From: an uncultured Gemmatimonadales bacterium
Lineage (GTDB): Bacteria; Gemmatimonadota; Gemmatimonadetes; Gemmatimonadales; GWC2-71-9
Direction: 5' to 3'
Assembly (NCBI GenBank): GCA_963841505.1
Contig: CAWJCZ010000008.1
Span: 519,175 to 583,174, forward strand
Length of the DNA: 64,000 nucleotides
Of this stretch, positions 7,353 to 51,403 are shown one piece after another. The notes under the pieces are model-generated. The model was not told where the DNA came from and searched no databases. It worked only from the letters and a program-made list of their open reading frames with translations. Each line of letters opens with the position of its first letter. Positions within the stretch are counted from its first letter, which is position 1. The position numbers were made by a program, and so were the translations under genes.

Positions 7353-9688
7353 GGCCGGGGCGCGAGCCGTCGGTGGAAGGACTGCACCGGAAGGAAGGCC
7401 TCCTCCCAGAGCTGCTCGAGGCGTTCGGCGAGGTCCGGGAGATCGAGGGGAAGCAGGGCCAGGGCCAGCTCGAGGCGATGCTGGCCCGGCTCCTGGGCCT
7501 CGGGCGTCGGGACCGGCCAGGCGGCGTGTCCGGGGCGCTCGGGCAGCCCGTCGCGGGTTAACTCTCCCACCCCCCGAAGGACGCTGATCAGCAGCACGCC
7601 GTGCGGGGTCCACTCGTACTCGAAGAACCCGGGAGCGAACACCGCGAGCACCCCCGCCGGTCCCTGGGCCGCGACAAAGCGCTGGGCCGGCGCGGTCTTC
7701 ACCTCCCGCTCGATGGCGGCGACCGGCGGGGCCTCCGGCACCGGGGCAGTCAGGTCCAGCCCGACCGTGCCGCCCGCGATCACCTTGCCCCGTCCTGCCG
7801 GGAAAGCCAGCCGGAGCCGGTGATCCGGCCCGGGATTCTGGAGGTCGATCCGCACGGTGAGCAGGGACGAGCCCGCTTGGAGCGCGGTCACCATGCGGGC
7901 GTCGAGGCGGCCGGACGGCAGGCGCACCGACCAGCGGGTTTCCAGCGCGCCGATGAGGCTTCCATTCGCGTGGATGGCCTGCCCGAGGGGCGAGATGGTT
8001 CCCTGCTGGGGCGACCCACCGGGCGAACAGGTGTAGAGATCGCCCTGGTCGGGCTCATCCACGAAGCGGAGCAGCCCTGCGAGGCTGGTTCCGGTGGTGC
8101 GGTCGGCCAGGGTGATGGACCCTTCGGGACTGGTTCGAGCCGCCACCAGCTCGTTCGAGATGGTATCGGGCGCCGAGACGAGGAGCGGCCCGTCGGCCGG
8201 GTCCGGGCTGGGAACCACCTGGAGGGTCGCCAGGCCTAACCCGGGAAGCTTCGGGGCGCGGACCGCGATCCAGACCCGGTCCACTTCGTCCTGGTCGGGG
8301 TAGCGATGGAGATCGTCGCGCCGTTCCTGGTCCCGGCGGACGGCGAGAACCTGGACCGGCAGCACCTGGCCGCCCGCGGTTCTGAGCCCGAACGGTGCGG
8401 CCCCCACCCCGGTCCGGGGAGTCCGGCCGTCCGGGGCGCCGACCAGAATATCCCGGCGAAAAAATGTGAGCATCGCGGTCACCACGCCGGCCCGTTTTCG
8501 TTTGACCGGATTCCACAACAGCAGGCGGCCTTCCGCGCCACCGGCGTCGTCTCCCGCGTCGAGCAGAGTGTTCACCGCCGCCTGGACCACCTCACGGCTG
8601 ATCGTGTTCACCGCCCGAATCCGGAGCGCCTGCTCCTGCTGGGCCTCGTCGCAGGTGGTTCCGGCGAGGGTGTCATGGAACTGGGATTGGAGCAGAATTT
8701 TCCAGGCCTGGTCCAGCGCGGGCGAGCGTCCCCCACCCCGGATCCGCGCGTCGAGCGGCTCCGCCACCCGGGCCAGCCGGAGCTCGGCGGCGCCGTGGGC
8801 GGCCTTGAGCCGGGCTCGCGCCGAGTGGGTGTCCTGGAGGTCCCAGGTGTAGCCGCGGCTCCGGCGAAGCGACCCGCGGATGACCGGCGCGACGGGCGGC
8901 TCACCCTCGACGGCATCGAAGTACTCCCCTAACCCGCTGATCCGGACCGCCCCCCCGGGCTCCAGCGCGGCCAGCCGGTCGCGGAGGACCGACACCCGGG
9001 GCACCATGGCGTGGTGGTCGGCGCCGAGAAACACCGCGAGATGGGGAGTCGAGGCGCGATCGATGAGCTGCTGCCGGATCCGCCGCCATTCGGTCGGCAG
9101 CGCCGGGCTTCCGGCGAGCCCGATGGCGTCGTCGTAGCCGGCCGGGGGAAGCTGGTGGGTCAGCAGGCTGGCCCCATCGGGCGACTCCCACCGGTAGAAG
9201 TCGCCGGGTCGCCCGAGGCCGCGCCGGATCACCGCGCGCCGAAACCCGAGCTCGGCGGCAATGGCGGGGAGCGCCGCGGGATGACCGAAGGCATCGGGAC
9301 TGTAGAGCACGTCGAGACACTTGCCGAATCGTTCGGCCGCCCGGCGGCCTTCGATCAGGTTGCGGCGGATGGAATGGGCCGAGGGCACCAGCAGGTCGGC
9401 CAGCACGTACCACGGCCCGATCTCGAGCGCGCCGCGTTCCACCTGGGCCCGGATCCGCGGCTCCTGCTCGGGACGAATGGCCAGGTAGTCCTCGAGCAGG
9501 ATGGTCTGCCCGTCCAGCAGGAACCGGGCATCGGGATCCGCCTCGAGCTGGTCGAGCACCTGGTCCAGCACCGGGACCAGGCGGGTCTGGAAAGCGGCCC
9601 GCGGCAAATACCACTCGCGGTCCCAGTGGGTGTGGGGAATGAGATGGAAGGTGTAGCCGGACGGGCGGACGGGCGGACCGGCGGACAG
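7349..9688 (-). CDS. Glycoside hydrolase family 38 (alpha-mannosidase-like)
   Basis: The track ORF 7349..9607 starts at TTG. It shows GH38 N-domain features (LLDGQTILLEDYL, EIGPWYVLAD, SPDAFGHP). The conserved GH38 metal-site motif HLIPHTHWDREWY is encoded in frame just upstream (9608-9649) of that TTG. I therefore extend to the only near-cognate start, CTG 9686-9688; the start is uncertain. Confidence 0.8.
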   Translation of the reverse strand: MSAGPPVRPSGYTFHLIPHTHWDREWYLPRAAFQTRLVPVLDQVLDQLEADPDARFLLDGQTILLEDYLAIRPEQEPRIRAQVERGALEIGPWYVLADLLVPSAHSIRRNLIEGRRAAERFGKCLDVLYSPDAFGHPAALPAIAAELGFRRAVIRRGLGRPGDFYRWESPDGASLLTHQLPPAGYDDAIGLAGSPALPTEWRRIRQQLIDRASTPHLAVFLGADHHAMVPRVSVLRDRLAALEPGGAVRISGLGEYFDAVEGEPPVAPVIRGSLRRSRGYTWDLQDTHSARARLKAAHGAAELRLARVAEPLDARIRGGGRSPALDQAWKILLQSQFHDTLAGTTCDEAQQEQALRIRAVNTISREVVQAAVNTLLDAGDDAGGAEGRLLLWNPVKRKRAGVVTAMLTFFRRDILVGAPDGRTPRTGVGAAPFGLRTAGGQVLPVQVLAVRRDQERRDDLHRYPDQDEVDRVWIAVRAPKLPGLGLATLQVVPSPDPADGPLLVSAPDTISNELVAARTSPEGSITLADRTTGTSLAGLLRFVDEPDQGDLYTCSPGGSPQQGTISPLGQAIHANGSLIGALETRWSVRLPSGRLDARMVTALQAGSSLLTVRIDLQNPGPDHRLRLAFPAGRGKVIAGGTVGLDLTAPVPEAPPVAAIEREVKTAPAQRFVAAQGPAGVLAVFAPGFFEYEWTPHGVLLISVLRGVGELTRDGLPERPGHAAWPVPTPEAQEPGQHRLELALALLPLDLPDLAERLEQLWEEAFLPVQSFHRRLAPRP

Positions 9689-9694
9689 GGGGAC
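9653..9694. repeat. Tandem octamer array, about 5 units (GTAGCCGG ACGGGCGG ACGGGCGG ACCGGCGG ACAGGGGG on plus strand)
   Basis: Read directly. It belongs to the same NGGCGGAC family as the arrays at 37132, 38971, 42718 and 44295 but in the opposite orientation relative to the flanking minus-strand genes. It lies between the TAG stop of the ferritin-like gene (9694-9696) and the GH38 conserved N-terminus. Confidence 0.85.
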
Positions 9695-37131: not shown

Positions 37132-37171
37132 GTCCGCCCGTCCGCCCGTCCGCCCGTCCGCCCGTCCGCCC
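37132..37171. repeat. Perfect tandem octamer array (GTCCGCCC)x5, plus a partial unit running into the stop codon at 37174-37176
   Basis: Read directly. The minus strand reads TAG-AC(GGGCGGAC)n. Confidence 0.95.
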
Positions 37172-37173
37172 GT

Positions 37174-38965
37174 CTACGACTTCAGGATCCAGAAGCGCGC
37201 CTGATAGCGCCACGCGGTGTAGGCGATCCGGCCCCCATCCGGCGACACCGCCGGCTGGGTCTTGTCGGTGGAATCCCGGGTGAGTTGCGCCGGAACATTG
37301 CCGCTCGACCGGACCCGGAACAGCTGGAGCCGTCCCTGATCGTCGGGGGCGGGATAGACCAGCCACGCCCCACCCGGACCCACCCCGAATCCGTCGATCC
37401 GCTGAGGACTCTCGTACCGGTGAATCACCTGCGGCGTCCCGCCGGTACGCGCCACGCGGTAGAGCGTGTGTCCGGTCGGCGGATGGGTCGCCGAGAAGAC
37501 GATCGTGTCGCTGGAGCCGAGCCACTCGGCGTGGACTACCTCCTCGGACAAACCGGTGACCGGAACGGAACGCGCCGGGACGGTCACCCGACCGGTCTCC
37601 TGATCGACCCCCACGATCCATACCAGCGATCGGCGGCGCCCATTGATCACCGAATCGCCGTCGAACACGATCCACCGTCCGTCCGGCGACCACCGCGGCC
37701 ACCCCACCTCGGCGCCGCGGCCGAGGTTGCTGATGCGGGTTAACGGGCTATCTCGCTCGGCAGGACGGAGCCAGACGTCGTCCGAATTCTGCTGATGTGA
37801 GTGAAACGCGATCCAGCGCCGGTTGGGCGACCAGGTGATCCCCTGATCCTCCGACACGGACTGCTGGATGACTTGCTCCACTCGGGCAGCCGGCGCGTCA
37901 CCGTCCGCCGCGATGATCCCGACGTCTTGCGCGATGTCGGGGTAATGGAAATCGTCACGCACCCTGCGCCAGGTTCCGTAGGTGACGCCGAGACGGGTTC
38001 CGGTCGGGTCCCACGAAGGAGTCTCGGCTTGAAAAGCGGTGCGCTGCACGGCCGAGCCGCCTTCGGCCGGCATCACCAGCACTTCGGTTCCGTAGTCCTG
38101 ATCCTTGTAGAGGAGGGCGCCGTCCCGGCTCACCGACGGAGCGTAAGTATCCCTCGGCTCGGCGGCCATCTGGCGGCCAGCGTGCCGGCTCAGGTCCCAG
38201 GCCCAAAGCCGAACAAAGCCGCTGTCGTTGGCGAAAGCGACGTACAGCTCGCGGCCGTCGGGCGACGGGGCGACGGGACCGTAGGCCTCGCGTTCCTCGA
38301 GTCCGACAGGCACGGCATCCCCGCAGGGGAGCGTAACCCGCTGTCGACCGGCTTCCATTGCCAGGCAACCGATCCGGCCATCCGGCATCCAGAAGGGGTA
38401 GCCCACCCGGATGGTGATTGACCGAGTCGAGATTGCTCGTCCGCTCGCATCGAATTCCCAGAGTCGGGATCCCGGCGGCTGCAACTCAACTCCCGCGCCT
38501 TTGCGTCCATCCAGCGACCAGCTCAATTCACGGAGTAAGGCGGGATCCACCGAGTCGCCGGCGCTGGTCACGAGCCGAGTGTCCCTCGGGCCAGAGGGGT
38601 TGCCGGGTGCCGCGGTTCAGGTCGTAGGACCACCAGAGTACCGCGCTGTCGGGCTGGCCCAGCACCAGCGTCGTATCGTCTCGCCAGACGAGGTGCTGGA
38701 TCCGTCCGTCTCCCACCGGCAGGGAGCGCTCGGTGCCGGCCCGGAGGTCATGGATTACGAATTGGTTGGGGATGACGGTCGCCAGCCGGCGCCCGTCGGG
38801 GGAGAGCACCCCGATCGGATCGCGATACCCCACCGGCCCGGCCTGATGTATCGTCGCGACGACGGACGCGATCGGCGAGCCTGGTGCTGCCGGGCAACCG
38901 GCGAGAAGGCCGAACCAGGTGATCGCGAGGAGAAATGCCGGGTTATGGAGCGATGGCCGTCTCAT
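37174..38965 (-). pseudogene. TolB/PD40-like beta-propeller lipoprotein, reading frame broken once (38572-38618)
   Basis: The N-terminus with lipobox (MRRPSLHNPAFLLAITWFGLLAGC...) is in ORF 38528..38965. The body, with PD40-type repeats (SPDGRELY, SRDGALLY, SPNRRWIAF, SPDGRWIVF, SPDGGRIAY), is in ORF 37174..38571. Confidence 0.7.
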
Positions 38966-38970
38966 CGATG

Positions 38971-39026
38971 GTCCGCCTGTCCGCCGTCGCGCCTGTCCGC
39001 CTGTCCGCCTGTCCGCCTGTCCGCCT
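38971..39026. repeat. Tandem octamer array, 7 units (GTCCGCCT x5, GTCCGCCG, one degenerate TCGCGCCT)
   Basis: Read directly. It fills almost the whole 59-nt spacer between the kinase stop (39025-39027) and the ATG of the PD40 lipoprotein gene (38963-38965). Confidence 0.95.
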
Positions 39027-42717: not shown

Positions 42718-42749
42718 GTCCGCCGGTCCGCCGGTCCGCCTGTCCGCCC
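42718..42749. repeat. Tandem octamer array, 4 units (GTCCGCCG x2, GTCCGCCT, GTCCGCCC)
   Basis: Read directly. It occupies the convergent spacer between the TGA at 42710-42712 (plus-strand gene) and the TAG at 42749-42751 (M14 peptidase). Confidence 0.95.
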
Positions 42750-45700
42750 TATTTCTCGTCGAGCTTTCGTCCCACATTCAGGTTGTCGAAGTGCATGATG
42801 GTGTTGAGCACCAGCGGGTAGCTTCCGATCGTTTCGCCCCGCCACATCGGATTGATCGCGAAGAGCACGACGTGCCCCTTGTCCTTCGGCGCGTCCACCA
42901 CGATGGGCCGCTCCGCGATCTCGCTGCCGCCATCGAGCAATCCCGACACCAGGAGATCCCGTTGCGCGCTGAACCGGAGCGCCACCCGGGGACGCTGATC
43001 CGGCGGAATGATGTTGATGGGATTCCGGAGCTGATCGTTGGTGAGCGGCACCCGTTCCCATTGTTCCGCCGTCGGCCGAGCCGGCAGCTCGAACTCGGGC
43101 GTGAGTGCGGGCCGTCCCTGCACCACATCGGGATCGTCCTGGGTTCCCCTCCCGGTGGGCCGGGAGTTGGACCCGCCGAACCGGCCGCCCCGGCCGCCGC
43201 CCAGCGTGTTACCGACCGAAAGACTCGACCCGTCATCGCTGTACACCGCCAGGCTGTCGCCGACGCCGTACACGATTGGGCTCGTCGCATCCACGATTCG
43301 AGAGCGGAGCAGGGTGCCCACGACCCGGGAACGGCCTGGCCCGTTGGTCGAAACCCCGCTGGCGAGTCCATACTGGACTGCGAGTTCCGCGGTGTTCGCG
43401 ACGCCGACCAGCACGCCACCCTGGGACACGAACCGCTGGAGATTGGCCAGGCCGGTCCATCCTAACCCGGGGCGCACGTCGTCGGTCTGGGCCCAGGTCC
43501 CGAGGTTCGGGGTTTCCGGGGTGTTCTTCCAGGGCATCGGATTCCGCCACATCGGGAGGCCCTGCACGATGGTCTGAAGGCCCCCGCCCGCCGGGGGAAA
43601 GAGGATCACGTCGTATTTCGCATTCAGGTTGTCGTTCTTTGCGACCTCCTGGGTACTGATGTAGTCGAACGGGATGCTCAGGAAGTCGAACGCCTGCCGC
43701 CACCAGCCTTCGGTCTGGGTGCCGAGCCAGGTGTGCAGTATGGCGACCCGGGCCGCCCGCACCGGGTGGGTCTTCACCGTGGGCGCCGTGGCCAGTCCGT
43801 ACCCGGTCAACCCAAGCTCTCTGGTCGCTCGATCCAGATCACTCGCCCCGACCCCGCGGATCAGGAACGTCCCGCGGGCAAATTTCTTCCCCGCCGCCTC
43901 GAACGGTTCTTCGGCAGACTGGATGTCGGCGTCCTTGAGCCGGTAGCGGAGCGTCGCGAGGGCGTTGTCGCCGTTGGCATTGATGGCGACCACGCTCCCG
44001 CTGCCCTGCACGCTACCCGGCGGATTCACCGGACCGCTGATCGCCGTCACCGGCACGCGAAGCACCGTGGTGTCGGTCACCCGGAGCGCCTCGACCGCGA
44101 ATCCCTCCGGGAAGGTCCAGCCGGTGTCATCGTAGGGCGTCTTCTGGGGATCGTCCGGAGCCCAGTACTGGTAGTCGAGCAGCGCGTCCGCGATGCGGGA
44201 GTAGGGCTGGTCCATCCGGATGATGTACGACCCGGCCGGGAAGCTCTTCGACTCGGTCTTCTTCGCGGTATCGGCCTTCACCGCGGTACTGTCGGTCCGC
44301 CGGTCCGCCGGTCCGCCGGTCCGTCGCTTCACCGCCACCTGCACCGTAAACGGAGCATTCGCGCGCGAGATCTCCACGTGCTGCTTCTGGAGGATCCGAA
44401 GCAGCTCCGCCTGGGCCCCGGGCCGGCGGGTTTCCCCGGTCAGGACATAGGCGGCGGGGCCTTCGGTATGCGCCTTGAGCACCGAGCGCTTGCTCTTCTG
44501 GTAGAAGTTCCTGAGGATGAGCTCCTTGTTCTGGGCGATGTAACTGAGTGAGACCAGCAGGCCGGTCTGCTCGTAGTTGTTGTTATTGCGGAGCGACCAC
44601 TTGACCCGGGGCAGCGGGGGATTCTGGCGGTACCAGGTGCGCGAGGTTTCCCCGGGAGAGAGGGTGCGTTCCAGGGTCTCCGCGCTGCCGCCGTTCCCGA
44701 AGGTTTCGTAGAGCCGGCTGATCCCATTGTGAGTTGCGGCCATGAACATGAGGTAGCCGGGCGACCAGGTATCGAAATTCCCGAAGGCAAAAACCCCGGG
44801 CATCCCCATCCGGGTCATCTCCTGCACGTTGTTCCAGCCGATCATCTGCCACTCGTTGGTCAGCAGCGGATCCACCCATGCGTTGTAGGGACCGTCGCCG
44901 ATGGTGTTGTCGTAGAGGTAGGCGACCGATTCATGCAGATCGTGAATCACCTGCGCCTTCCAGTCCACGTAGGTGTTCAGCACGTTCTGGGTCAGCTTCA
45001 GCGTCATCCCCATCGCGTCGCGATTGTTGTCGTGCGCGACGTAGTGCCCCCAGTAGATCAGGTTGGGCCAGGTATCGTCGGGATGGGCCTTGTGCCAGTT
45101 GTAGATGTCCACCACCCGGTCGCGCCCATCCACCTCGACGATCGGCGTGATCAGCGTGATGACCTTATCGCGGATGTTCTTGAGGTACGGACTTTCGTCC
45201 ACCGCGAGACGGTAGGCCAGCTCCATCAGAGCGGTGGGGGCGCCGGCTTCGGGAGAGTGGATCGTGCCGGTGATGTAATACACCGGCGCCGCCGTCGCCG
45301 CGATCCGGGCCGCCTCGGCGTCGTTCATGTTGATGGTCCGCGGGTCGGCCAGCCGGGCGAGGTCCGCCTTGTTGGCATCGAGGCGGGCCATCAGCGCCTC
45401 CGAGGCCACCGCCACCGCGATCATCTCGCGATTCTCTTCGGTGCGCCCGATCGAATAGACCCGCACTCGCGGGCTCGCCTTGGCGAGCCGTCGCATGTAG
45501 TCGTACACCTCGGTGGAATAGGGAAGCTTGCCCGGCGCCCCGGCGATGTCCCCCAGGACCACCGTCGGGGTCGGCACCGTCTTGGAGGCCGGTAAATAGT
45601 TGACCAGGGGAGAGAGGAAGAAGGGTTCGGTGGTGTACTCCAGGATCTTCTTGGTGTACGCCTCGTCGATTGGCTGACTCGGACTCCGGCCCGGCACGAC

Positions 45701-47150: not shown

Positions 47151-47882
47151 ATGTTCCCCTACAAAGACGACAACCCGACTCTCACCACCCCGGTCGTCAC
47201 CTACGGCCTCATCGCAGTGAACGTGGCGGTCTGGCTGCTGATCCAGGGAATGGGTCAGAGCCCGGTCCTCGAGGCCTCGGTCTGTCAGTACGGCGTCATC
47301 CCGGGCCGCTTGTTCGGCCACCTCATGCCCGGGATGGTGGTGAGCCTGGGGCCGGACGTGGCCTGCCGGATCGGCGACTTCCCGGCCTGGGCCACGGTGC
47401 TGAGTTCGATGTTCATGCATGGCGGCTGGCTGCATCTGATCGGGAACATGTGGTTCCTCTGGATTTTCGGGAACAACGTGGAGGACTCGAGTGGACGGCT
47501 CCGGTTCCTGCTGTTCTATCTGCTCTGCGGCGCGGTCGCCGCGGGAACCCAGAGCGTCGCCACCCCCGAGAGCCCGGTGCCGATGGTGGGGGCCTCGGGA
47601 GCGATCAGCGGGGTGATGGGAGCCTACATCCTGCTGTACCCCCGGGTCCGGGTCCACATGCTCATCTTCCTGGGCTTCTTCATAACCCGCATTGCCGTCC
47701 CCGCCTACTTCATGCTGGGCTACTGGTTCCTGCTTCAGCTCGCCAGCGGGTTTCTTCCCTCGGAGGAAGGGGGTGTGGCGTTCCTGGCCCATGCTGGCGG
47801 GTTCGTGTCCGGGATGGCGCTGATCTTCCTGTTCCGGAACCCCGAGCTGATCGCGCGGCGCCACGCCTACCGGCTGCCCTGA
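47151..47882 (+). CDS. Rhomboid-family intramembrane serine protease
   Basis: 243-aa ORF with six TM helices. Motifs are FMHGGWLHLIGNMWFLWIFG (HxxxN) and the catalytic GASGAISGV. Confidence 0.9.
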   Translation: MFPYKDDNPTLTTPVVTYGLIAVNVAVWLLIQGMGQSPVLEASVCQYGVIPGRLFGHLMPGMVVSLGPDVACRIGDFPAWATVLSSMFMHGGWLHLIGNMWFLWIFGNNVEDSSGRLRFLLFYLLCGAVAAGTQSVATPESPVPMVGASGAISGVMGAYILLYPRVRVHMLIFLGFFITRIAVPAYFMLGYWFLLQLASGFLPSEEGGVAFLAHAGGFVSGMALIFLFRNPELIARRHAYRLP

Positions 47883-47930: not shown

Positions 47931-48965
47931 ATGGCCACGCCAACCCGAACCTCCCGCTACGGGACCCCATCGTCCCCCGGGAGCCGTGCCTCCGCGCCGG
48001 TTCCAGGACCGGCCGATCTCGCGCGCAATCCCGGCATGCCGCTCGACCTGGGCTGGATTCGGGAGATCCGGATCAACCGGAGCGCGGTGGAGCGGCGCGC
48101 CGCGACCATTCCCACCCGCCGCTCGATCAAGAAGGAGTGGCAGGCCGGCTGGCTGCTCCGGGCCATCACGCTGATGGATCTCACCACCCTCCAGGGGGAC
48201 GACACGCCCGGGCGGGTGCTTCGATTGTGCGCCAAGGCCCGGCAGCCGGTGCGGCGCGACCTGCTCGAGGCCCTGGACCTCGGGGGACTCGATCTCACGG
48301 TCGCGGCGGTGTGCGTCTATCACGCCTTTGTCGAGACCGCGGTTCGGGCGCTCGAAGGGAGCGACATTCCGGTCGCCGCGGTCTCCACCGGCTTTCCCGC
48401 CGGGCTCTCTCCGATGCCGCAGCGGCTCGCCGAGATCGAAGCGTCGTTGGCGGCCGGTGCCCGGGAGATCGACATCGTCATAACCCGCGCCCACGTGCTG
48501 ACCTCCAACTGGGGCGCGCTCTACGACGAGGTGAAGGCGTTCCGCGCCGCCTGCGGCCCGGCCCACCTCAAGGCCATCCTCGGCACCGGCGACCTCGGCA
48601 CCCTGCGCGAGGTGGCCAGGGCCAGCATGGTGGCCATGATGGCGGGGGCCGACTTCATCAAGACCTCGACCGGCAAGGAATCGGTGAACGCTACGGTCCC
48701 GGTGGGGCTCGTCATGGCCCGCCAGATCCGGGAGTATCGCGAACGCACCGGACACACCGTTGGGCTCAAGCCCGCGGGCGGCATCCGGACCGCCAAGCAG
48801 GCGCTGGACTGGCTCGCCATGATCAAGGACGAGCTGGGAGACCGCTGGCTCGCTCCCGACCTGTTCCGCTTCGGAGCGAGCAGTCTGCTGACCGACATCG
48901 AGCGGCAGCTCGAGCATCACGCCACCGGCCGCTACAGCGCGACCCACCGGCATCCCCTGACATGA
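47931..48965 (+). CDS. deoC: Deoxyribose-phosphate aldolase (long form)
   Basis: 344-aa ORF. Blocks are IDLTTL-type LMDLTTLQGDDT, AAVCVY, EIDIVI and ADFIKTSTGK (Schiff-base Lys). An ATGA overlap joins it to the downstream aldehyde dehydrogenase. The start could be the later ATG 48036. Confidence 0.85.
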   Translation: MATPTRTSRYGTPSSPGSRASAPVPGPADLARNPGMPLDLGWIREIRINRSAVERRAATIPTRRSIKKEWQAGWLLRAITLMDLTTLQGDDTPGRVLRLCAKARQPVRRDLLEALDLGGLDLTVAAVCVYHAFVETAVRALEGSDIPVAAVSTGFPAGLSPMPQRLAEIEASLAAGAREIDIVITRAHVLTSNWGALYDEVKAFRAACGPAHLKAILGTGDLGTLREVARASMVAMMAGADFIKTSTGKESVNATVPVGLVMARQIREYRERTGHTVGLKPAGGIRTAKQALDWLAMIKDELGDRWLAPDLFRFGASSLLTDIERQLEHHATGRYSATHRHPLT

Positions 48966-51403
48966 CCTCGGTCCGCGAAGCCTACGAATCCATGGCGTGG
49001 GGACCGGCGCCCGAGTCGCCCGCGCAGGCGCAGGCGTGGATCGAGCAGCACGGGCGCACGTTCGGGAATTACCTGAACGGCGCCTGGGTGCCCGGGACTT
49101 CCCACTTCGGGGTGATCAACCCCGCCACCAGGGAAGAGCTCGCGCGGGTGGCGGAGGCCGGCAAGGCCGAGGTGGATGCCGCGGTGGCCGCGGCGCGCGC
49201 GGCCCAGAAAGCCTGGTCGGCCCTGGGCGGACACGGACGGGCCCGGTGGCTCTACGCCCTCGCCCGGGAAGTGCAGCGCAACGCGCGGCTCTTCGCGGTG
49301 GTCGAGTCACTCGACAATGGAAAGCCGATCCGGGAATCCCGCGACATCGACATCCCGCTGGTGGCCCGCCACTTCTATTACCATGCCGGGTGGGCCCAGC
49401 TCATGGAGACCGAGCTCGCGGGTTATGAGCCGGTGGGGGTCGTCGGCCAGATCATTCCATGGAATTTCCCCCTGCTCATGCTGGCCTGGAAGATCGCCCC
49501 GGCCCTCGCGACCGGAAACACGGTGGTCCTCAAGCCCGCCGAGTTTACTCCGCTCACCGCGCTGCTCTTTGCCGACTGCTGCCATACCATCGGTCTGCCG
49601 CCCGGGGTGGTGAACATCCTCACCGGCGACGGCACCACCGGTGCCCTGCTGGTCGATCATCCCGGGCTGGACAAGATCGCGTTCACCGGGTCCACCGACG
49701 TGGGCCGGATCATCCGGACCGCGACGGCCGGGAGCGGCAAACGACTGTCGCTCGAGCTGGGCGGCAAGTCGCCCTTCATCGTGTTCGAGGATGCCGATCT
49801 CGACAGCGTGGTCGAGGGCGTGGTGGACGCGATCTGGTTCAACCAGGGCCAGGTCTGCTGCGCCGGCTCCCGGATCCTCGCGCAGGAAGGCATCGCCACC
49901 CGGCTGGTCGAAAAGCTCCGGAATCGCATGGAGACGCTCCGGGTCGGGTCTCCGCTCGACAAATCGGTGGACATCGGGGCGATCGTCGCCCCGGTCCAGC
50001 TCGAGCGGATTGAATCCCTCGTCAAGCAGGGCGTCGAAGAAGGCGCCACCTGCTGGCAGCCCAGCTGGAGCTGCCCCACTGAGGGGCTGTTCTATCCTCC
50101 GACGCTGTTCACCGATGTGGCGCCCGCCGCGACGATCGCGCAGGTCGAGATCTTCGGACCGGTCGTGGTGCTGATGACGTTCCGGACCCCGGGCGAAGCG
50201 GTCGAGATCGCCAACAACACGCGCTATGGCCTCGCGGCCAGCGTGTGGAGCGAGAACCTCAACACCGCGCTCGATGTTGCCCCCGAGCTCAAGGCCGGGA
50301 CCGTGTGGGTCAACTGTACCAACATGTTCGATGCGGCAAGTGGATTCGGCGGATACCGGGAATCCGGGTACGGGCGGGAGGGCGGGCTCGAGGGACTGTG
50401 GGAGTACGTGCGGATGGGAAGATTGGAGGATAGGAAGATGGGAAGAGAGGACGCCCCGCCATCTGCCCATCCTCCTATCCTCCCATCCTCCCGTCCTCCT
50501 ATCCTCCCATCCTCCCATCCTCCTATCCTCCCATCCTCCCATCCTCCCATCCTCCCTCCCATCGACCGCACCCCCAAGCTCTACATCGGCGGGAAGCAGG
50601 TCCGTCCCGATGCGACCTACACCATCCCGATTCACGACAGCGCGGGGAAACTGCTCGCTGAAATACCTCGCGGGAACCGCAAGGATGTCCGGAACGCGGT
50701 GGAAGCCGCGCGTCAGGCGGCATCCTCATGGGGCAAGGCCACCGCGCACACCCGTGCTCAGGTTCTCTACTATTTCGCCGAGAACCTGGCCGTCCGGGAA
50801 AAGGAATTCACCGATCGGCTGGCGTCTTTGGCGGCGCACTCCCCCTTCGCGCCGGCGGCTGAAGTCGCCGGGTCGATCCAGCGCGCCTTCTACTATGCCG
50901 CGTGGGCCGACAAATACGACGGGCGGGTCCACCACACCCCGTTTCGCAATGTGACGCTTGCGATGAACGAGCCGATCGGGGTGCTGGGCCTGGTCGCCCC
51001 GGAGGAGTCGGGACTGCTTGGCTTCCTTTCTCTCGTGCTCCCCGCTATCGCCATGGGCAATACCGTGGTGACGATTCCTTCGAGTCGAGTGCCGGTGCTG
51101 GCCACGGATCTGTACCAGGTATTCGACACCTCGGACGTGCCCGGCGGCGTGATCAACATCGTGACGGGAGCTCGCCAGGAGCTTGTCCCGGTGCTCGCCG
51201 CGCACGACGATGTCGATGGCATCTGGCTGTTCGGATCCCGCGAGGAAGTCACCGAGGTCGAGAAGCTCTCCGCCGGCAACATGAAGCGGACCTGGGCGGA
51301 ATGGGAATCACGCGACTGGTCCGACCCTCACGAGGGGCAGGGCGGGGAATTCCTTCGCGAGGCGACCCAGGTCAAGAACATCTGGGTCCCCTACGGCGCC
51401 TAG
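48962..51403 (+). CDS. Two-domain aldehyde dehydrogenase: a complete ALDH (catalytic Cys) fused through a repeat-encoded Pro-rich linker to an ALDH-like N-terminal/NAD-domain module
   Basis: This is the in-frame part of track ORF 47048..51403, starting MTSVREAYES. Domain 1 has IIPWNFPLLM, ELGGKSP and NQGQVCCAGSR. The linker is ...HPPILPSSRPPILPSSHPPILPSSHPPILPP. Domain 2 (IDRTPKLYIGGKQVRPD...) is ALDH-like but I see no catalytic Cys block. Confidence 0.8.
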   Translation: MTSVREAYESMAWGPAPESPAQAQAWIEQHGRTFGNYLNGAWVPGTSHFGVINPATREELARVAEAGKAEVDAAVAAARAAQKAWSALGGHGRARWLYALAREVQRNARLFAVVESLDNGKPIRESRDIDIPLVARHFYYHAGWAQLMETELAGYEPVGVVGQIIPWNFPLLMLAWKIAPALATGNTVVLKPAEFTPLTALLFADCCHTIGLPPGVVNILTGDGTTGALLVDHPGLDKIAFTGSTDVGRIIRTATAGSGKRLSLELGGKSPFIVFEDADLDSVVEGVVDAIWFNQGQVCCAGSRILAQEGIATRLVEKLRNRMETLRVGSPLDKSVDIGAIVAPVQLERIESLVKQGVEEGATCWQPSWSCPTEGLFYPPTLFTDVAPAATIAQVEIFGPVVVLMTFRTPGEAVEIANNTRYGLAASVWSENLNTALDVAPELKAGTVWVNCTNMFDAASGFGGYRESGYGREGGLEGLWEYVRMGRLEDRKMGREDAPPSAHPPILPSSRPPILPSSHPPILPSSHPPILPPIDRTPKLYIGGKQVRPDATYTIPIHDSAGKLLAEIPRGNRKDVRNAVEAARQAASSWGKATAHTRAQVLYYFAENLAVREKEFTDRLASLAAHSPFAPAAEVAGSIQRAFYYAAWADKYDGRVHHTPFRNVTLAMNEPIGVLGLVAPEESGLLGFLSLVLPAIAMGNTVVTIPSSRVPVLATDLYQVFDTSDVPGGVINIVTGARQELVPVLAAHDDVDGIWLFGSREEVTEVEKLSAGNMKRTWAEWESRDWSDPHEGQGGEFLREATQVKNIWVPYGA
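50412..50555. repeat. Inverted octamer arrays: 5 G-rich units (GGATGGGA AGATTGGA GGATAGGA AGATGGGA AGAGAGGA, 50412-50451), a 16-nt spacer, then 11 C-rich units (YRTCCTCC, 50468-50555)
   Basis: Read directly. The two arms are largely complementary (a 22-nt stretch pairs 20/22). The array lies inside the ALDH reading frame. Confidence 0.9.

What the first reader, a model, noticed from the sequence alone, without database searches (positions are those of the whole stretch)
50412..50555. Two ALDH modules fused by a linker made of inverted octamer arrays (hairpin-capable, HPPILPSS peptide repeats)
A complete aldehyde dehydrogenase ends around ...GLEGLWEYVR. An ALDH-like N-terminal module begins at IDRTPKLYIGGKQVRPD. 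Between them lie 144 nt of octamers: 5 G-rich units, a 16-nt spacer, then 11 C-rich units (CATCCTCC/TATCCTCC/CGTCCTCC). In frame this encodes MGRLEDRKMGREDAPPSAHPPILPSSRPPILPSSHPPILPSSHPPILPP, where 3 units equal one 8-residue peptide repeat. The arms are complementary (20/22 over one stretch), so the mRNA could form a long stem inside the ORF. The C-rich arm is CCUCC-rich (anti-SD-like), and its complement reads (GGAGGATG)n. The unit skeleton (xTCCxCCx) resembles the GTCCGCCN family found elsewhere in the window. A change of one unit would uncouple the two modules. I suspect the region was once an intergenic spacer between two genes that lost its stop, but a natural two-domain protein with a repeat-colonised linker is equally possible.
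Basis: partly seen in the sequence, partly recalled or inferred. Interest (0 to 1): 0.6.

Follow-up and report, generated by a model that had tools for sequence, protein, structure and literature searches.

The report
Hairpin-forming octamer repeats encoding ALDH16 linker
The floppy tether between the two halves of a known two-part enzyme (ALDH16) in this soil Gemmatimonadales bacterium is encoded by two facing runs of an 8-base repeat, one of about 80 such repeat sites in the genome, and related species carry differently spelled repeats at the same place.

Summary
Window 50412-50555 holds 5 purine-rich octamers, a 16-nt spacer and 11 C-rich octamers. They lie in frame and can fold into a long hairpin (z = -6.2).

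The "two fused ALDH modules" are not a recent fusion. The 813-aa protein is a bacterial ALDH16, matching PDB 6MVR over its full length (E = 3e-275). Two modules define that family. It sits downstream of deoC in many phyla, always fused, always with a variable 27-68-aa linker. AlphaFold2 predicts the repeat-encoded segment to be disordered.

The repeat is one copy of a genome-wide class. The genome has 103 period-8 arrays in 80 sites, and 23 of these sites are inverted pairs, all with the G-rich arm first. About 16 sites lie in frame in genes, including the E2 acyltransferase and aconitase linkers.

In Gemmatimonadales orthologues the same linker carries hairpin-forming arrays with different units. 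In each of five genomes tested, the unit belongs to a family spread over many loci of that genome and rare or absent in most of the congeners.

Best reading: a tolerated, fast-evolving microsatellite pair translated as spacer.

This scan has already found the same class on other Gemmatimonadales DNA. The closest published analogue is the convergent heptamer repeats of Xanthomonas.

The parts
47931..48965 (+). deoC-like deoxyribose-phosphate aldolase gene (344 aa). Its TGA stop overlaps the ALDH16 start codon (ATGA).
   Evidence: Pfam DeoC, E = 8.4e-18. The overlap is visible. A DeoC homologue lies directly upstream of the ALDH16 gene in 71 fetched loci from many phyla.
48962..51403 (+). ALDH16 gene: one 813-aa ORF holding both modules and the repeat-encoded linker.
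   Evidence: Full-length match to PDB 6MVR/6MVU (Loktanella ALDH16, 767 aa), 918 bits, E = 3e-275. AlphaFold2 pTM 0.86.
48962..50413 (+). Module 1 (aa 1-484): a complete, catalytically equipped aldehyde dehydrogenase ending ...GLEGLWEYVR.
   Evidence: Pfam Aldedh at aa 42-484, E = 2.4e-200. N168, E265 and C299/C300 are invariant in 47 orthologues and align with the triad region of 6MVR (triad named in PMC12041015).
50412..50451 (+). G arm: 5 degenerate purine-rich octamers (GGATGGGA-type), translated as MGRLEDRKMGRED.
50452..50467 (+). 16-nt spacer (the loop of the potential hairpin), CGCCCCGCCATCTGCC.
   Evidence: The loops of the 23 pairs in the genome are unrelated to one another.
50468..50555 (+). 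C arm: 11 octamers (CATCCTCC / TATCCTCC / CGTCCTCC), translated as (H/R)PPILPSS repeats. The complement reads (GGAGGATR)n.
   Evidence: TRF: 11.4 copies, 90% matches, score 154. The GGAGGATN family has 85 pattern matches (overlapping positions within arrays are counted separately), spread over more than ten loci of this genome.
50414..50560 (+). Inter-module linker of the protein (aa 485-533), predicted disordered.
   Evidence: AlphaFold2 pLDDT below 50 and no secondary structure for aa 489-528. This segment is unaligned and variable in all orthologues.
50561..51403 (+). Module 2 (aa 534-813): the ALDH16 C-terminal domain. It is an ALDH-like Rossmann and oligomerisation part without the catalytic domain.
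   Evidence: Pfam Aldedh profile positions 14-237 of 461 only. It aligns to residues 499-767 of 6MVU, E = 2.1e-98.

Best explanation
The 144-nt segment is a translated copy of a Gemmatimonadales-wide class of short tandem repeats. These repeats are mostly octamers with a GGxGGAyN skeleton, and they often occur as facing pairs with the G-rich arm first and the complementary C-rich arm second.

Here the pair occupies the disordered tether between the catalytic module and the C-terminal pseudo-Rossmann domain of a deoC-linked bacterial ALDH16. In that position the protein appears to require only three things: a flexible spacer of roughly 30-70 residues, no stop codon, and a length divisible by three. 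The repeat meets all three and is read through as MGRLEDRK...(H/R)PPILPSS x4.

**Shown.** The protein's identity, the age of the fusion, the predicted disorder of the linker, the genome-wide repeat class, the recurrence of differently spelled hairpin arrays at the same linker in related species, and the match between each genome's linker unit and a unit family dispersed in that genome.

**Inferred.** The array grows and shrinks by replication slippage. Selection removes out-of-frame lengths. Arm complementarity is kept or renewed by the process that makes or homogenises these pairs (template switching within quasi-palindromes, or conversion between arrays). The mRNA hairpin is a by-product that the ribosome unwinds, not a device serving this gene.
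For: **Protein.**
- Full-length hit to the ALDH16 crystal structure 6MVR. The family is described in PMC8160307 and PMC12041015.
- At least 72 of 80 loci from Gemmatimonadota, Bacteroidota, Chloroflexota, Proteobacteria, Acidobacteriota and Myxococcota are fused, with variable 27-68-aa linkers and no in-frame stop or broken frame. deoC lies upstream in 71 loci.
- AlphaFold2 gives pTM 0.86, with linker residues 489-528 at pLDDT below 50 and coiled.

**Repeat class in this genome.**
- There are 103 period-8 arrays in 80 sites; 23 sites are inverted pairs, all G arm first and none C arm first.
- My frame test flagged 17 sites as in-frame coding; one of these (C8:260344) proved false on inspection. 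The remaining sites include the lipoyl-PSBD linker of an E2 acyltransferase and the domain 3-4 linker of aconitase.
- Loops and flanks of the pairs are unrelated, so these are not copies of one inserted element.

**Same site in relatives.**
- 22 Gemmatimonadales orthologue linkers fold with z <= -3, and most also show period 8 with a purine-rich first half and a pyrimidine-rich second half. The units differ between species.
- All non-Gemmatimonadota linkers have z near 0.
- At least 11 gains or losses are needed on the tree, 4 of them within the genus.
- A linker's own two halves pair better than halves from different species: -74.5 against -54.9 kcal/mol, with 0 of 5000 permutations as low.

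**Unit families per genome (pattern matches; overlapping positions within an array are counted separately).**
- GGAGGATN: 85 in this genome, 0-5 in four congeners.
- AAGTCGGN: 35, 24 and 9 in G021, G002 and G018; 1 here.
- CCAGACGG: 34 in G010, 0 in four others.
- AAGAGGCA: 106 in G024, 32 in G002, 0 in three others.
- In G000, G021, G018, G010 and G024 the linker array uses one of these families.
Against: - No reads, RNA data or population variants could be examined, so a regulatory or switching role is not excluded.
- The hairpin is very stable for a sequence inside an ORF, and arm complementarity is specific. Both could also reflect selection on the structure.
- Repeated appearance at one linker could mean the site is favoured for a reason other than tolerance.
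- The arm-specificity test used linkers chosen for strong self-folding, and related genomes are not independent.
- Short-read MAGs lose or break repeats, so counts in the congeners are lower bounds.
Confidence: 0.75

Rival explanations
1. The hairpin is a functional RNA or DNA structure placed between the two modules. It might act as a translational pause site that lets module 1 fold first, as an RNase III or other processing site, or as a block to transcription or replication through G-quadruplex or cruciform formation.
For: - The fold is strong (z = -6.2).
- Hairpin-forming linkers recur in 22 orthologues with different sequences.
- Own arms pair better than foreign arms.
- The position exactly at the domain boundary is where a pause would be useful.
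Against: - Same-genus orthologues (L005-L008) and every orthologue outside Gemmatimonadota lack any such structure (z near 0), yet keep the same protein.
- The same kind of pair lies at about 20 unrelated intergenic and genic sites in this genome, so the structure belongs to the repeat class and not to this gene.
- No T-tail terminator or promoter is present, and no Rfam family reaches its threshold; the only matches are generic hairpin hits far below gathering scores.
- The arms are unequal: 5 degenerate units against 11 units.
Confidence: 0.13
2. The array is a phase-variation (contingency) switch. Slippage by one or two octamers turns the full-length ALDH16 into a truncated catalytic module lacking the dimerisation domain, and further slippage turns it back.
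For: - The unit length is not a multiple of three.
- There are 11 near-identical copies.
- A change of 1 or 2 units gives 563-666-aa frameshifted products, while a change of 3 units stays in frame.
- Phase variation was suggested for the Xanthomonas heptamers (PMC6344855, citing Rehm et al.).
Against: - No locus examined has an in-frame stop or a broken frame between the modules, although unit numbers and sequences differ widely.
- The host is a housekeeping catabolic enzyme, not a surface or restriction gene.
- The same arrays sit in E2 acyltransferase and aconitase linkers, where switching off would be costly.
- No polymorphism data could be obtained.
Confidence: 0.07
3. The gene is a recent fusion. 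The repeat region was an intergenic spacer between two ALDH genes, and its stop codon was lost.
For: - Most arrays of this class are intergenic (63 of 80 sites).
- A distant lineage (G031, G035) has the two modules as separate adjacent genes.
Against: - The fused architecture defines ALDH16 and is present in many phyla with 54-78% identical module 2.
- Congeners without repeats are fused, with linkers of similar length.
- The split relatives have no spacer at all (TAAATG, TAGCCATG) and are only 40% identical.
Confidence: 0.03
4. The region is an assembly artefact: mis-collapsed or chimeric repeats join two genes that are really separate.
For: Repeats of this class break short-read assemblies. 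Contigs L028, L030 and L095 end inside this very linker.
Against: - The contig is 597 kb.
- The frame is intact.
- Independent MAGs from different studies show the same fused gene with arrays at the same place.
- The unit number itself could not be verified with reads.
Confidence: 0.02

Closest known systems
ALDH16 family (cd07111); crystal structure of Loktanella sp. ALDH16, PDB 6MVR/6MVS/6MVT/6MVU (Liu and Tanner 2019, as summarised in PMC8160307 and PMC12041015)
   Same: - The match runs over the full length (918 bits).
- An N-terminal complete ALDH with the Asn/Glu/Cys triad is followed by a C-terminal ALDH-like Rossmann domain without a catalytic domain.
- A linker joins the two modules.
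   Different: - The linker here is 49-51 residues against about 20 in the Loktanella protein (alignment).
- Here the linker is encoded entirely by inverted octamer arrays.
- The conserved deoC neighbour is not mentioned in the passages of the reviews that I read.
G-rich heptamer simple-sequence repeats of Xanthomonas (GGGAATC) and Nostoc (GGGGAYT), including 70-75 'convergent' inverted pairs per Xanthomonas genome (Rehm et al. 2015, PMC4692102)
   Same: - The repeats are short G-rich tandem units of 7-8 nt dispersed at about 100-200 loci.
- Many occur as closely spaced pairs on opposite strands in convergent orientation, able to form stem-loops.
- Most are intergenic and close to gene ends, with a minority inside ORFs.
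- Their function is unknown.
   Different: - The unit is an octamer with a different sequence, and it mostly carries GG rather than GGG tracts, so the quadruplex argument is weaker.
- Several unit families coexist and differ between congeneric species.
- Here a pair is translated in frame as a protein linker, and it recurs at the orthologous site with other units.
Rickettsia palindromic elements
   Same: A hairpin-forming repeat lies in frame inside a housekeeping protein gene, is translated, and sits at a structurally tolerant place.
   Different: RPEs are copies of a defined 100-150-nt consensus element. Here the arms are microsatellites, the loops and flanks are unrelated between loci, and the spelling changes between species.
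Simple-sequence contingency loci (phase variation by slipped-strand mispairing)
   Same: A tandem tract whose unit is not a multiple of 3 lies inside an ORF, so a one-unit change shifts the frame.
   Different: No out-of-frame orthologue was found, the host is a catabolic housekeeping enzyme, the unit is longer than the usual 1-7 nt, and no polymorphism data exist.

Membership tests
ALDH16 (cd07111) | Complete N-terminal ALDH followed in one polypeptide by a C-terminal ALDH-like NAD-domain remnant lacking the catalytic domain | tested here: met
   Pfam Aldedh at aa 42-484 (full profile), plus a second match covering profile positions 14-237 only. The ORF is single and open.
ALDH16 (cd07111) | Full-length sequence similarity to a structurally characterised ALDH16 | tested here: met
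   6MVR_A, 767 aa, E = 3.1e-275, both modules aligned. Module 2 alone gives E = 2.1e-98, against about 1e-24 for ordinary ALDHs.
ALDH16 (cd07111) | Catalytic Asn/Glu/Cys triad present, as in active bacterial members | tested here: met
   N168, E265 and C299/C300 are invariant in 47 orthologues. They align with the WNFP, LELGGK and QVCCAGSR motifs of 6MVR. The triad is named in PMC12041015.
ALDH16 (cd07111) | Dimer in which the C-terminal domain mimics a second ALDH subunit; aldehyde-oxidising activity | not testable with these tools
   Only a monomer model was made.
Convergent G-rich SSR pairs (Xanthomonas/Nostoc type, Rehm et al. 2015) | Short (6-9 nt) G-rich tandem unit dispersed over many loci of the genome | tested here: met
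   103 period-8 arrays in 3.28 Mb. Period 8 is the second most frequent TRF period after 12.
Convergent G-rich SSR pairs (Xanthomonas/Nostoc type, Rehm et al. 2015) | Frequent closely spaced pairs on opposite strands in convergent orientation | tested here: met
   23 pairs, all G arm then C arm, none the other way. The paper reports 70-75 such pairs.
Convergent G-rich SSR pairs (Xanthomonas/Nostoc type, Rehm et al. 2015) | Heptamer unit GGGAATC / GGGGAYT with G3-4 tracts that form G-quadruplexes | tested here: not met
   Units are octamers (GGCGGACN, GGAGGATN and others), mostly with GG tracts.
Rickettsia palindromic element-like mobile palindromes | Copies share one consensus sequence over the whole element, loop and ends included | tested here: not met
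   Loops of 8-108 nt and the flanks are unrelated among the 23 pairs, and the arms differ in length and unit.
Rickettsia palindromic element-like mobile palindromes | In-frame, translated presence at tolerant sites of housekeeping proteins | tested here: met
   ALDH16 linker. E2 acyltransferase, aconitase and M14 peptidase linkers.
Phase-variable contingency locus | Unit number varies within populations or between strains so that the frame is switched on and off | not testable with these tools
The protein cluster has one member. Two metagenome scans found nothing. Between species, no locus examined has an in-frame stop or broken frame between the modules.
Known structured RNA, intrinsic terminator or promoter | Match to an Rfam family at its gathering score, or a stem plus T-tail, or sigma-70 hexamers | tested here: not met
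   Only generic hairpin (miRNA-precursor) hits, at 18-52 bits against gathering scores of 47-168. 0 terminator-like and 0 promoter-like sites.

The most novel reading that the evidence does not exclude
The octamer pairs are not passive microsatellites. An active, genome-wide process writes or homogenises them.

Each species has its own unit families, present at dozens of unlinked loci and rare or absent in most congeners. The arrays at a given orthologous site, such as this ALDH16 linker, are overwritten to match. The two arms of a pair stay complementary, and all pairs have the G-rich arm 5' on both strands.

This pattern would fit one of two mechanisms:
- a templated, trans-acting repeat-adding or gene-conversion activity, for example one acting at 3' ends during break repair or on fold-back intermediates;
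- a strong biased conversion among arrays.

Either would be a new kind of bacterial repeat dynamics, and one that reshapes protein linkers.
Probability: 0.25. Interest if true: 0.75.

Novelty: new variant of a known kind. Interest (0 to 1): 0.5.

Why it matters
**For annotation.** The gene is an ordinary bacterial ALDH16 in a widely conserved deoC-ALDH16 pair. It is neither a chimera nor a pseudogene, and the low-complexity HPPILPSS stretch should not be read as a domain or a signal.

**For genome biology.** The locus is a clean natural experiment. One disordered linker of a conserved enzyme has been refilled many times with hairpin-forming repeats whose spelling follows each genome's own repeat families. 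This shows three things:
- Non-triplet microsatellites can supply protein linker sequence.
- Selection on frame, not on sequence, is what these linkers feel.
- Some process spreads or homogenises unit variants across unlinked loci within a species.

If that process is enzymatic or templated, it would be a new source of bacterial genome and protein variation.

**Practical point.** These arrays break short-read assemblies, and three contigs end inside this linker.

Tried and rejected
- **Read-level unit-number variation.** The 90%-identity protein cluster has a single member. Two exact-match scans of JGI metagenome contigs with the 3' flank and the 3' junction found nothing. Polymorphism is therefore untested.
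- **Liu and Tanner 2019.** I tried to read the paper for the state of the linker in the crystal. It is not held under either its DOI or its PMC id, so I used two reviews instead.
- **Mobile-element reading.** I looked for shared loops, ends or target duplications among the 23 pairs and found none. Rejected.
- **Known RNA, terminator or promoter.** Nothing real was found.
- **Internal translation start.** The G arm holds GGAGG (50425-50429) 8 nt before the in-frame ATG at 50438. Orthologues with other units lack this, so I treat it as a by-product of the unit sequence.
- **First coding classifier.** It missed this very locus, because each arm spoiled the other arm's flank statistics. I redid it treating pairs as one site. 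One "coding" call (C8:260344) is a false positive on inspection, because the array lies upstream of a thiolase start.
- **Literature.** Searches for octamer or octanucleotide repeats in Gemmatimonadetes found no description of this class.
Full report
**1. What is in the sequence**

It holds five degenerate purine-rich octamers (GGATGGGA AGATTGGA GGATAGGA AGATGGGA AGAGAGGA), then a 16-nt spacer, then eleven C-rich octamers (CATCCTCC / TATCCTCC / CGTCCTCC).

Tandem Repeats Finder scores the C arm at 11.4 copies, 90% matches and score 154. This is the strongest tandem repeat in the window.

The arms are complementary over 36-62 nt at 79-83%. RNA 50390-50580 folds at -81.9 kcal/mol with z = -6.2, and 0 of 200 shuffles fold as well.

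The segment lies in frame in one ORF, 48962-51403 (813 aa). The ORF's ATG overlaps the stop of an upstream deoC-like gene as ATGA. The translation is MGRLEDRKMGREDAPPSA followed by (H/R)PPILPSS repeats.

**2. What the protein is**

Pfam finds a complete aldehyde dehydrogenase at aa 42-484. A second match covers only the N-terminal half of the profile, positions 14-237 of 461.

The whole protein matches the 767-aa chain of PDB 6MVR/6MVU over both modules (918 bits, E = 3e-275). Module 2 alone hits that chain at E = 2e-98, against about 1e-24 for ordinary ALDHs. Those entries are the Loktanella sp. ALDH16 of Liu and Tanner (2019).

Two reviews describe ALDH16 as a full ALDH carrying an extra C-terminal Rossmann-like domain. 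That domain does not bind nucleotide and builds an unusual dimer. Bacterial members keep the catalytic Asn/Glu/Cys (PMC8160307; PMC12041015). Here N168, E265 and C299/C300 are present and invariant in 47 orthologues.

So the "two fused ALDH modules" are the defining architecture of a known family.

**3. Orthologues: one gene or two, and is there a linker?**

- A scan of one genome per species found 590 relatives of module 2. The best 80 come from Gemmatimonadota, Bacteroidota, Chloroflexota, Proteobacteria, Acidobacteriota, Myxococcota and others.
- At least 72 of these 80 loci are fused in one frame. None of the other 8 could be shown to be split, and at least 4 of them are cut by contig ends. 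None has a stop between the modules.
- The linker is always present, 27-68 residues long, low in complexity and unalignable.
- A DeoC homologue (61-89% identical) lies directly upstream in 71 fetched loci.
- Only G031 and G035, whose module 2 is 40% identical, have two genes. These are joined as TAAATG or TAGCCATG with no spacer.
- AlphaFold2 with the 47-sequence alignment gives pTM 0.86, with residues 489-528 below pLDDT 50 and without secondary structure.

The repeat therefore encodes a disordered tether in an old fusion.

**4. The repeat is one of a genome-wide class**

The organism is a Gemmatimonadales MAG (record titles). Its assembly is 3.28 Mb in 13 contigs.

- It holds 103 arrays with true period 8. 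I grouped them into 80 sites: 57 single arrays and 23 inverted pairs.
- All 23 pairs have the G-rich arm first and the C-rich arm second. None has the opposite order.
- The commonest units are GGCGGAC(A/C/G) and GGAGGAT(G/A).
- The pairs fold at -38 to -115 kcal/mol.
- Their loops (8-108 nt) and flanks are unrelated, and the arms are unequal. They are therefore not copies of one inserted element.
- My frame test flagged 17 of the 80 sites as spanned in frame by coding-like ORFs. One (C8:260344) is a false positive on inspection.
- The remaining sites include a pair in the lipoyl-PSBD linker of a 2-oxoacid dehydrogenase E2, a 13-unit array in the domain 3-4 linker of aconitase, a pair in a Pol IV-like gene, and the array at window 44293 in an M14 peptidase.

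The ALDH16 copy is thus not unique. These repeats sit in frame where proteins have flexible linkers.

**5. The same linker in related species**

Within the genus, most orthologues have a purine-rich array directly after ...LWEYV(K/R) and a complementary pyrimidine-rich array ending in the conserved LPP before IDRTPKLY. The units differ from species to species:

| Locus | G-arm unit | C-arm unit |
|---|---|---|
| L002 | AAGTCGGA | CTCCAGAC |
| L004 | AAGTCGGT | CTACCGAC |
| L014 | CCAGACGG | CCGTCCGG |
| L018 | GGGAAGAC | CCGTCCTC |
| L013 | AAGAGGCA | not determined |
| L010 | GGGCGGAC | GTCCGCCA |

Four congeners (L005-L008) instead share a non-repetitive linker containing ARAQLQ(N/D)TDTF.

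Across all fetched loci, 22 Gemmatimonadales linkers fold with z <= -3 (down to -10.4). Most of these also show period 8 and a purine-to-pyrimidine switch. Every linker from another phylum has z between -2.2 and +2.2 and no period 8.

On a tree of module 2, the repeat-bearing linkers fall mainly in two Gemmatimonadales clades. They need at least 11 changes of state, 4 of them within the genus.

A linker's own 5' half pairs with its own 3' half better than with the 3' halves of other species: mean -74.5 against -54.9 kcal/mol, 0 of 5000 permutations as low, and own partner ranked first in 11 of 22. The complementarity is therefore sequence-specific and not merely compositional. Two caveats apply: the set was chosen for strong self-folding, and the genomes are related.

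**6. Species-specific unit families**

Pattern counts in whole genomes show that the unit used in each linker belongs to a family spread over many loci of that genome and rare or absent in most congeners. Overlapping positions within an array are counted separately. The reversed-pattern controls are 0-1 for the AAGTCGGN, CCAGACGG and AAGAGGCA patterns. They are not low for GGAGGATN (35 hits in G000, 29 in G002) or for GGCGGACN (87 in G000).

| Unit family | Counts |
|---|---|
| GGAGGATN | 85 here; 5, 0, 0 and 1 in four congeners |
| AAGTCGGN | 35 (G021), 24 (G002), 9 (G018), 1 here, 0 (G010) |
| CCAGACGG | 34 in G010 on about 20 contigs; 0 in four others |
| AAGAGGCA | 106 in G024; 32 in G002 (mostly AAGAGGCT); 0 in three others |
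| GGCGGACN | present in all five genomes tested |

Local slippage alone does not explain how a new unit comes to occupy dozens of unlinked loci in one species. Some spreading or homogenising process is implied. Its nature is unknown, and short-read assemblies under-count repeats.

**7. How it most likely works here**

Shown:
- The tract is translated as a disordered spacer of an ALDH16.
- Only frame and openness are conserved.
- The tract is replaced and respelled quickly between species.

Inferred:
- Arrays expand and contract by slipped-strand mispairing.
- Lengths that break the frame are removed. A change of 1 or 2 units gives 563-666-aa products lacking module 2, while a change of 3 units adds or removes 8 residues.
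- Arm complementarity comes from the process that creates or corrects these quasi-palindromes.
- The mRNA hairpin is unwound by translating ribosomes.

There is no T-tail terminator, no promoter and no Rfam family at threshold. The SD-like GGAGG followed by an in-frame ATG in the G arm (50425-50440) is a property of this unit and is not conserved.

**8. Rival readings**

| Reading | Case for | Case against | Confidence |
|---|---|---|---|
| Functional hairpin (pause, processing) | Fits the stability and the arm specificity | Absent from congeners and other phyla that have the same protein; the same pairs occur at unrelated sites | about 0.13 |
| Phase-variation switch | Fits the non-triplet unit | No out-of-frame orthologue; housekeeping hosts; no reads could be examined | about 0.07 |
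| Recent fusion by stop loss | - | Contradicted by the age and spread of ALDH16 | 0.03 |
| Assembly artefact | - | 597-kb contig and independent MAGs with the same structure argue against it; the exact unit number is unverified | 0.02 |

**9. Comparison with what is known, and novelty**

The protein is already known (ALDH16).

The closest published analogue for the repeat class is the G-rich heptamers of Xanthomonas and Nostoc. Rehm et al. report 70-75 "convergent" inverted pairs per Xanthomonas genome, a location close to gene ends, and unknown function (PMC4692102). The class here differs in four ways:
- Its units are octamers.
- It has several coexisting unit families that are specific to each species.
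- Its G-tracts are weaker.
- It is used in frame as linker sequence.

Rickettsia palindromic elements share the in-frame, translated habit. They are copies of one consensus element, however, and that feature is not met here.

I found no paper describing these repeats in Gemmatimonadota.

Earlier notes of this scan report the same class in other Gemmatimonadales genomes: the FtsK, CheB, pdhC and alaS linkers, a dnaE2 loop, and single arrays in this very window. This locus is therefore one more instance. The points I tested myself are the ALDH16 identity, the 23-of-23 orientation, the recurrence at this linker, the arm specificity, and the per-genome unit families.

I rate it a new variant of a known kind, with interest 0.5.

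Noticed in passing
window 47931-51403; loci L021-L107: deoC (long, 344-aa form) and ALDH16 form a two-gene unit conserved across at least six phyla. Here the genes overlap as ATGA. This suggests ALDH16 oxidises the acetaldehyde released by deoxyribose-phosphate aldolase. The passages of the reviews I read do not mention this link.
   Followed up: partly
L026:2000-4513 and L027:2126-4608 (G031, G035): A distant Gemmatimonadales lineage has the ALDH16-like pair split into two genes. They are joined as TAAATG (same frame, one stop) or TAGCCATG, with deoC (45% identical) upstream. This is either the unfused ancestor state or a secondary fission.
   Followed up: partly
G000:C2:72573-72666 (- strand) and G000:C5:320139-320246 (+ strand): The same genome has an inverted octamer pair encoding the lipoyl-to-PSBD linker of a 2-oxoacid dehydrogenase E2 (RIGGQAVGRTGGQAV...PPARPSASPPE). 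It also has a 13-unit GGCGGAAN array encoding ADERSGGQAERRNGGQGERRTGGQAERRNGGQAER in the domain 3-4 linker of aconitase.
   Followed up: partly
whole genome G000 (23 sites; window example 50412-50555): All 23 inverted pairs have the G-rich arm 5' and the C-rich arm 3' on either strand, and none has the reverse order. Under random orientation this has a probability of about 1e-7. The cause is unexplained.
   Followed up: partly
window 9658-9694, 37132-37174, 38971-39026, 42718-42748, 44293-44323: Five further single arrays of the GGCGGACN/GTCCGCCN family lie in the window. Four are at gene boundaries and one is in frame in an M14 peptidase. Other findings of this scan already cover them.
   Followed up: no
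L028:1-81, L030:1-26, L095:1-11: Three short-read MAG contigs end inside this same ALDH16 linker. The arrays break assemblies, so repeat counts in such MAGs are lower bounds.
   Followed up: no
window 50425-50440: The G arm contains GGAGG 8 nt upstream of the in-frame ATG at 50438. In principle this could start a 321-aa product made of the linker plus module 2. It is not conserved in orthologues with other units.
   Followed up: partly
window 47151-47882: A rhomboid-family intramembrane protease ORF (243 aa, motif GASGAISGVMGAY) lies just upstream of deoC. I identified it by eye only.
   Followed up: no
L015, L016, L017 linkers (G011, G004, G007): Some congeners have hairpin-forming linkers (z -3.4 to -5.2) whose repeats are not period 8. 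One example is (GCAGCAG)n-like in L015. The class is therefore not strictly octameric.
   Followed up: no
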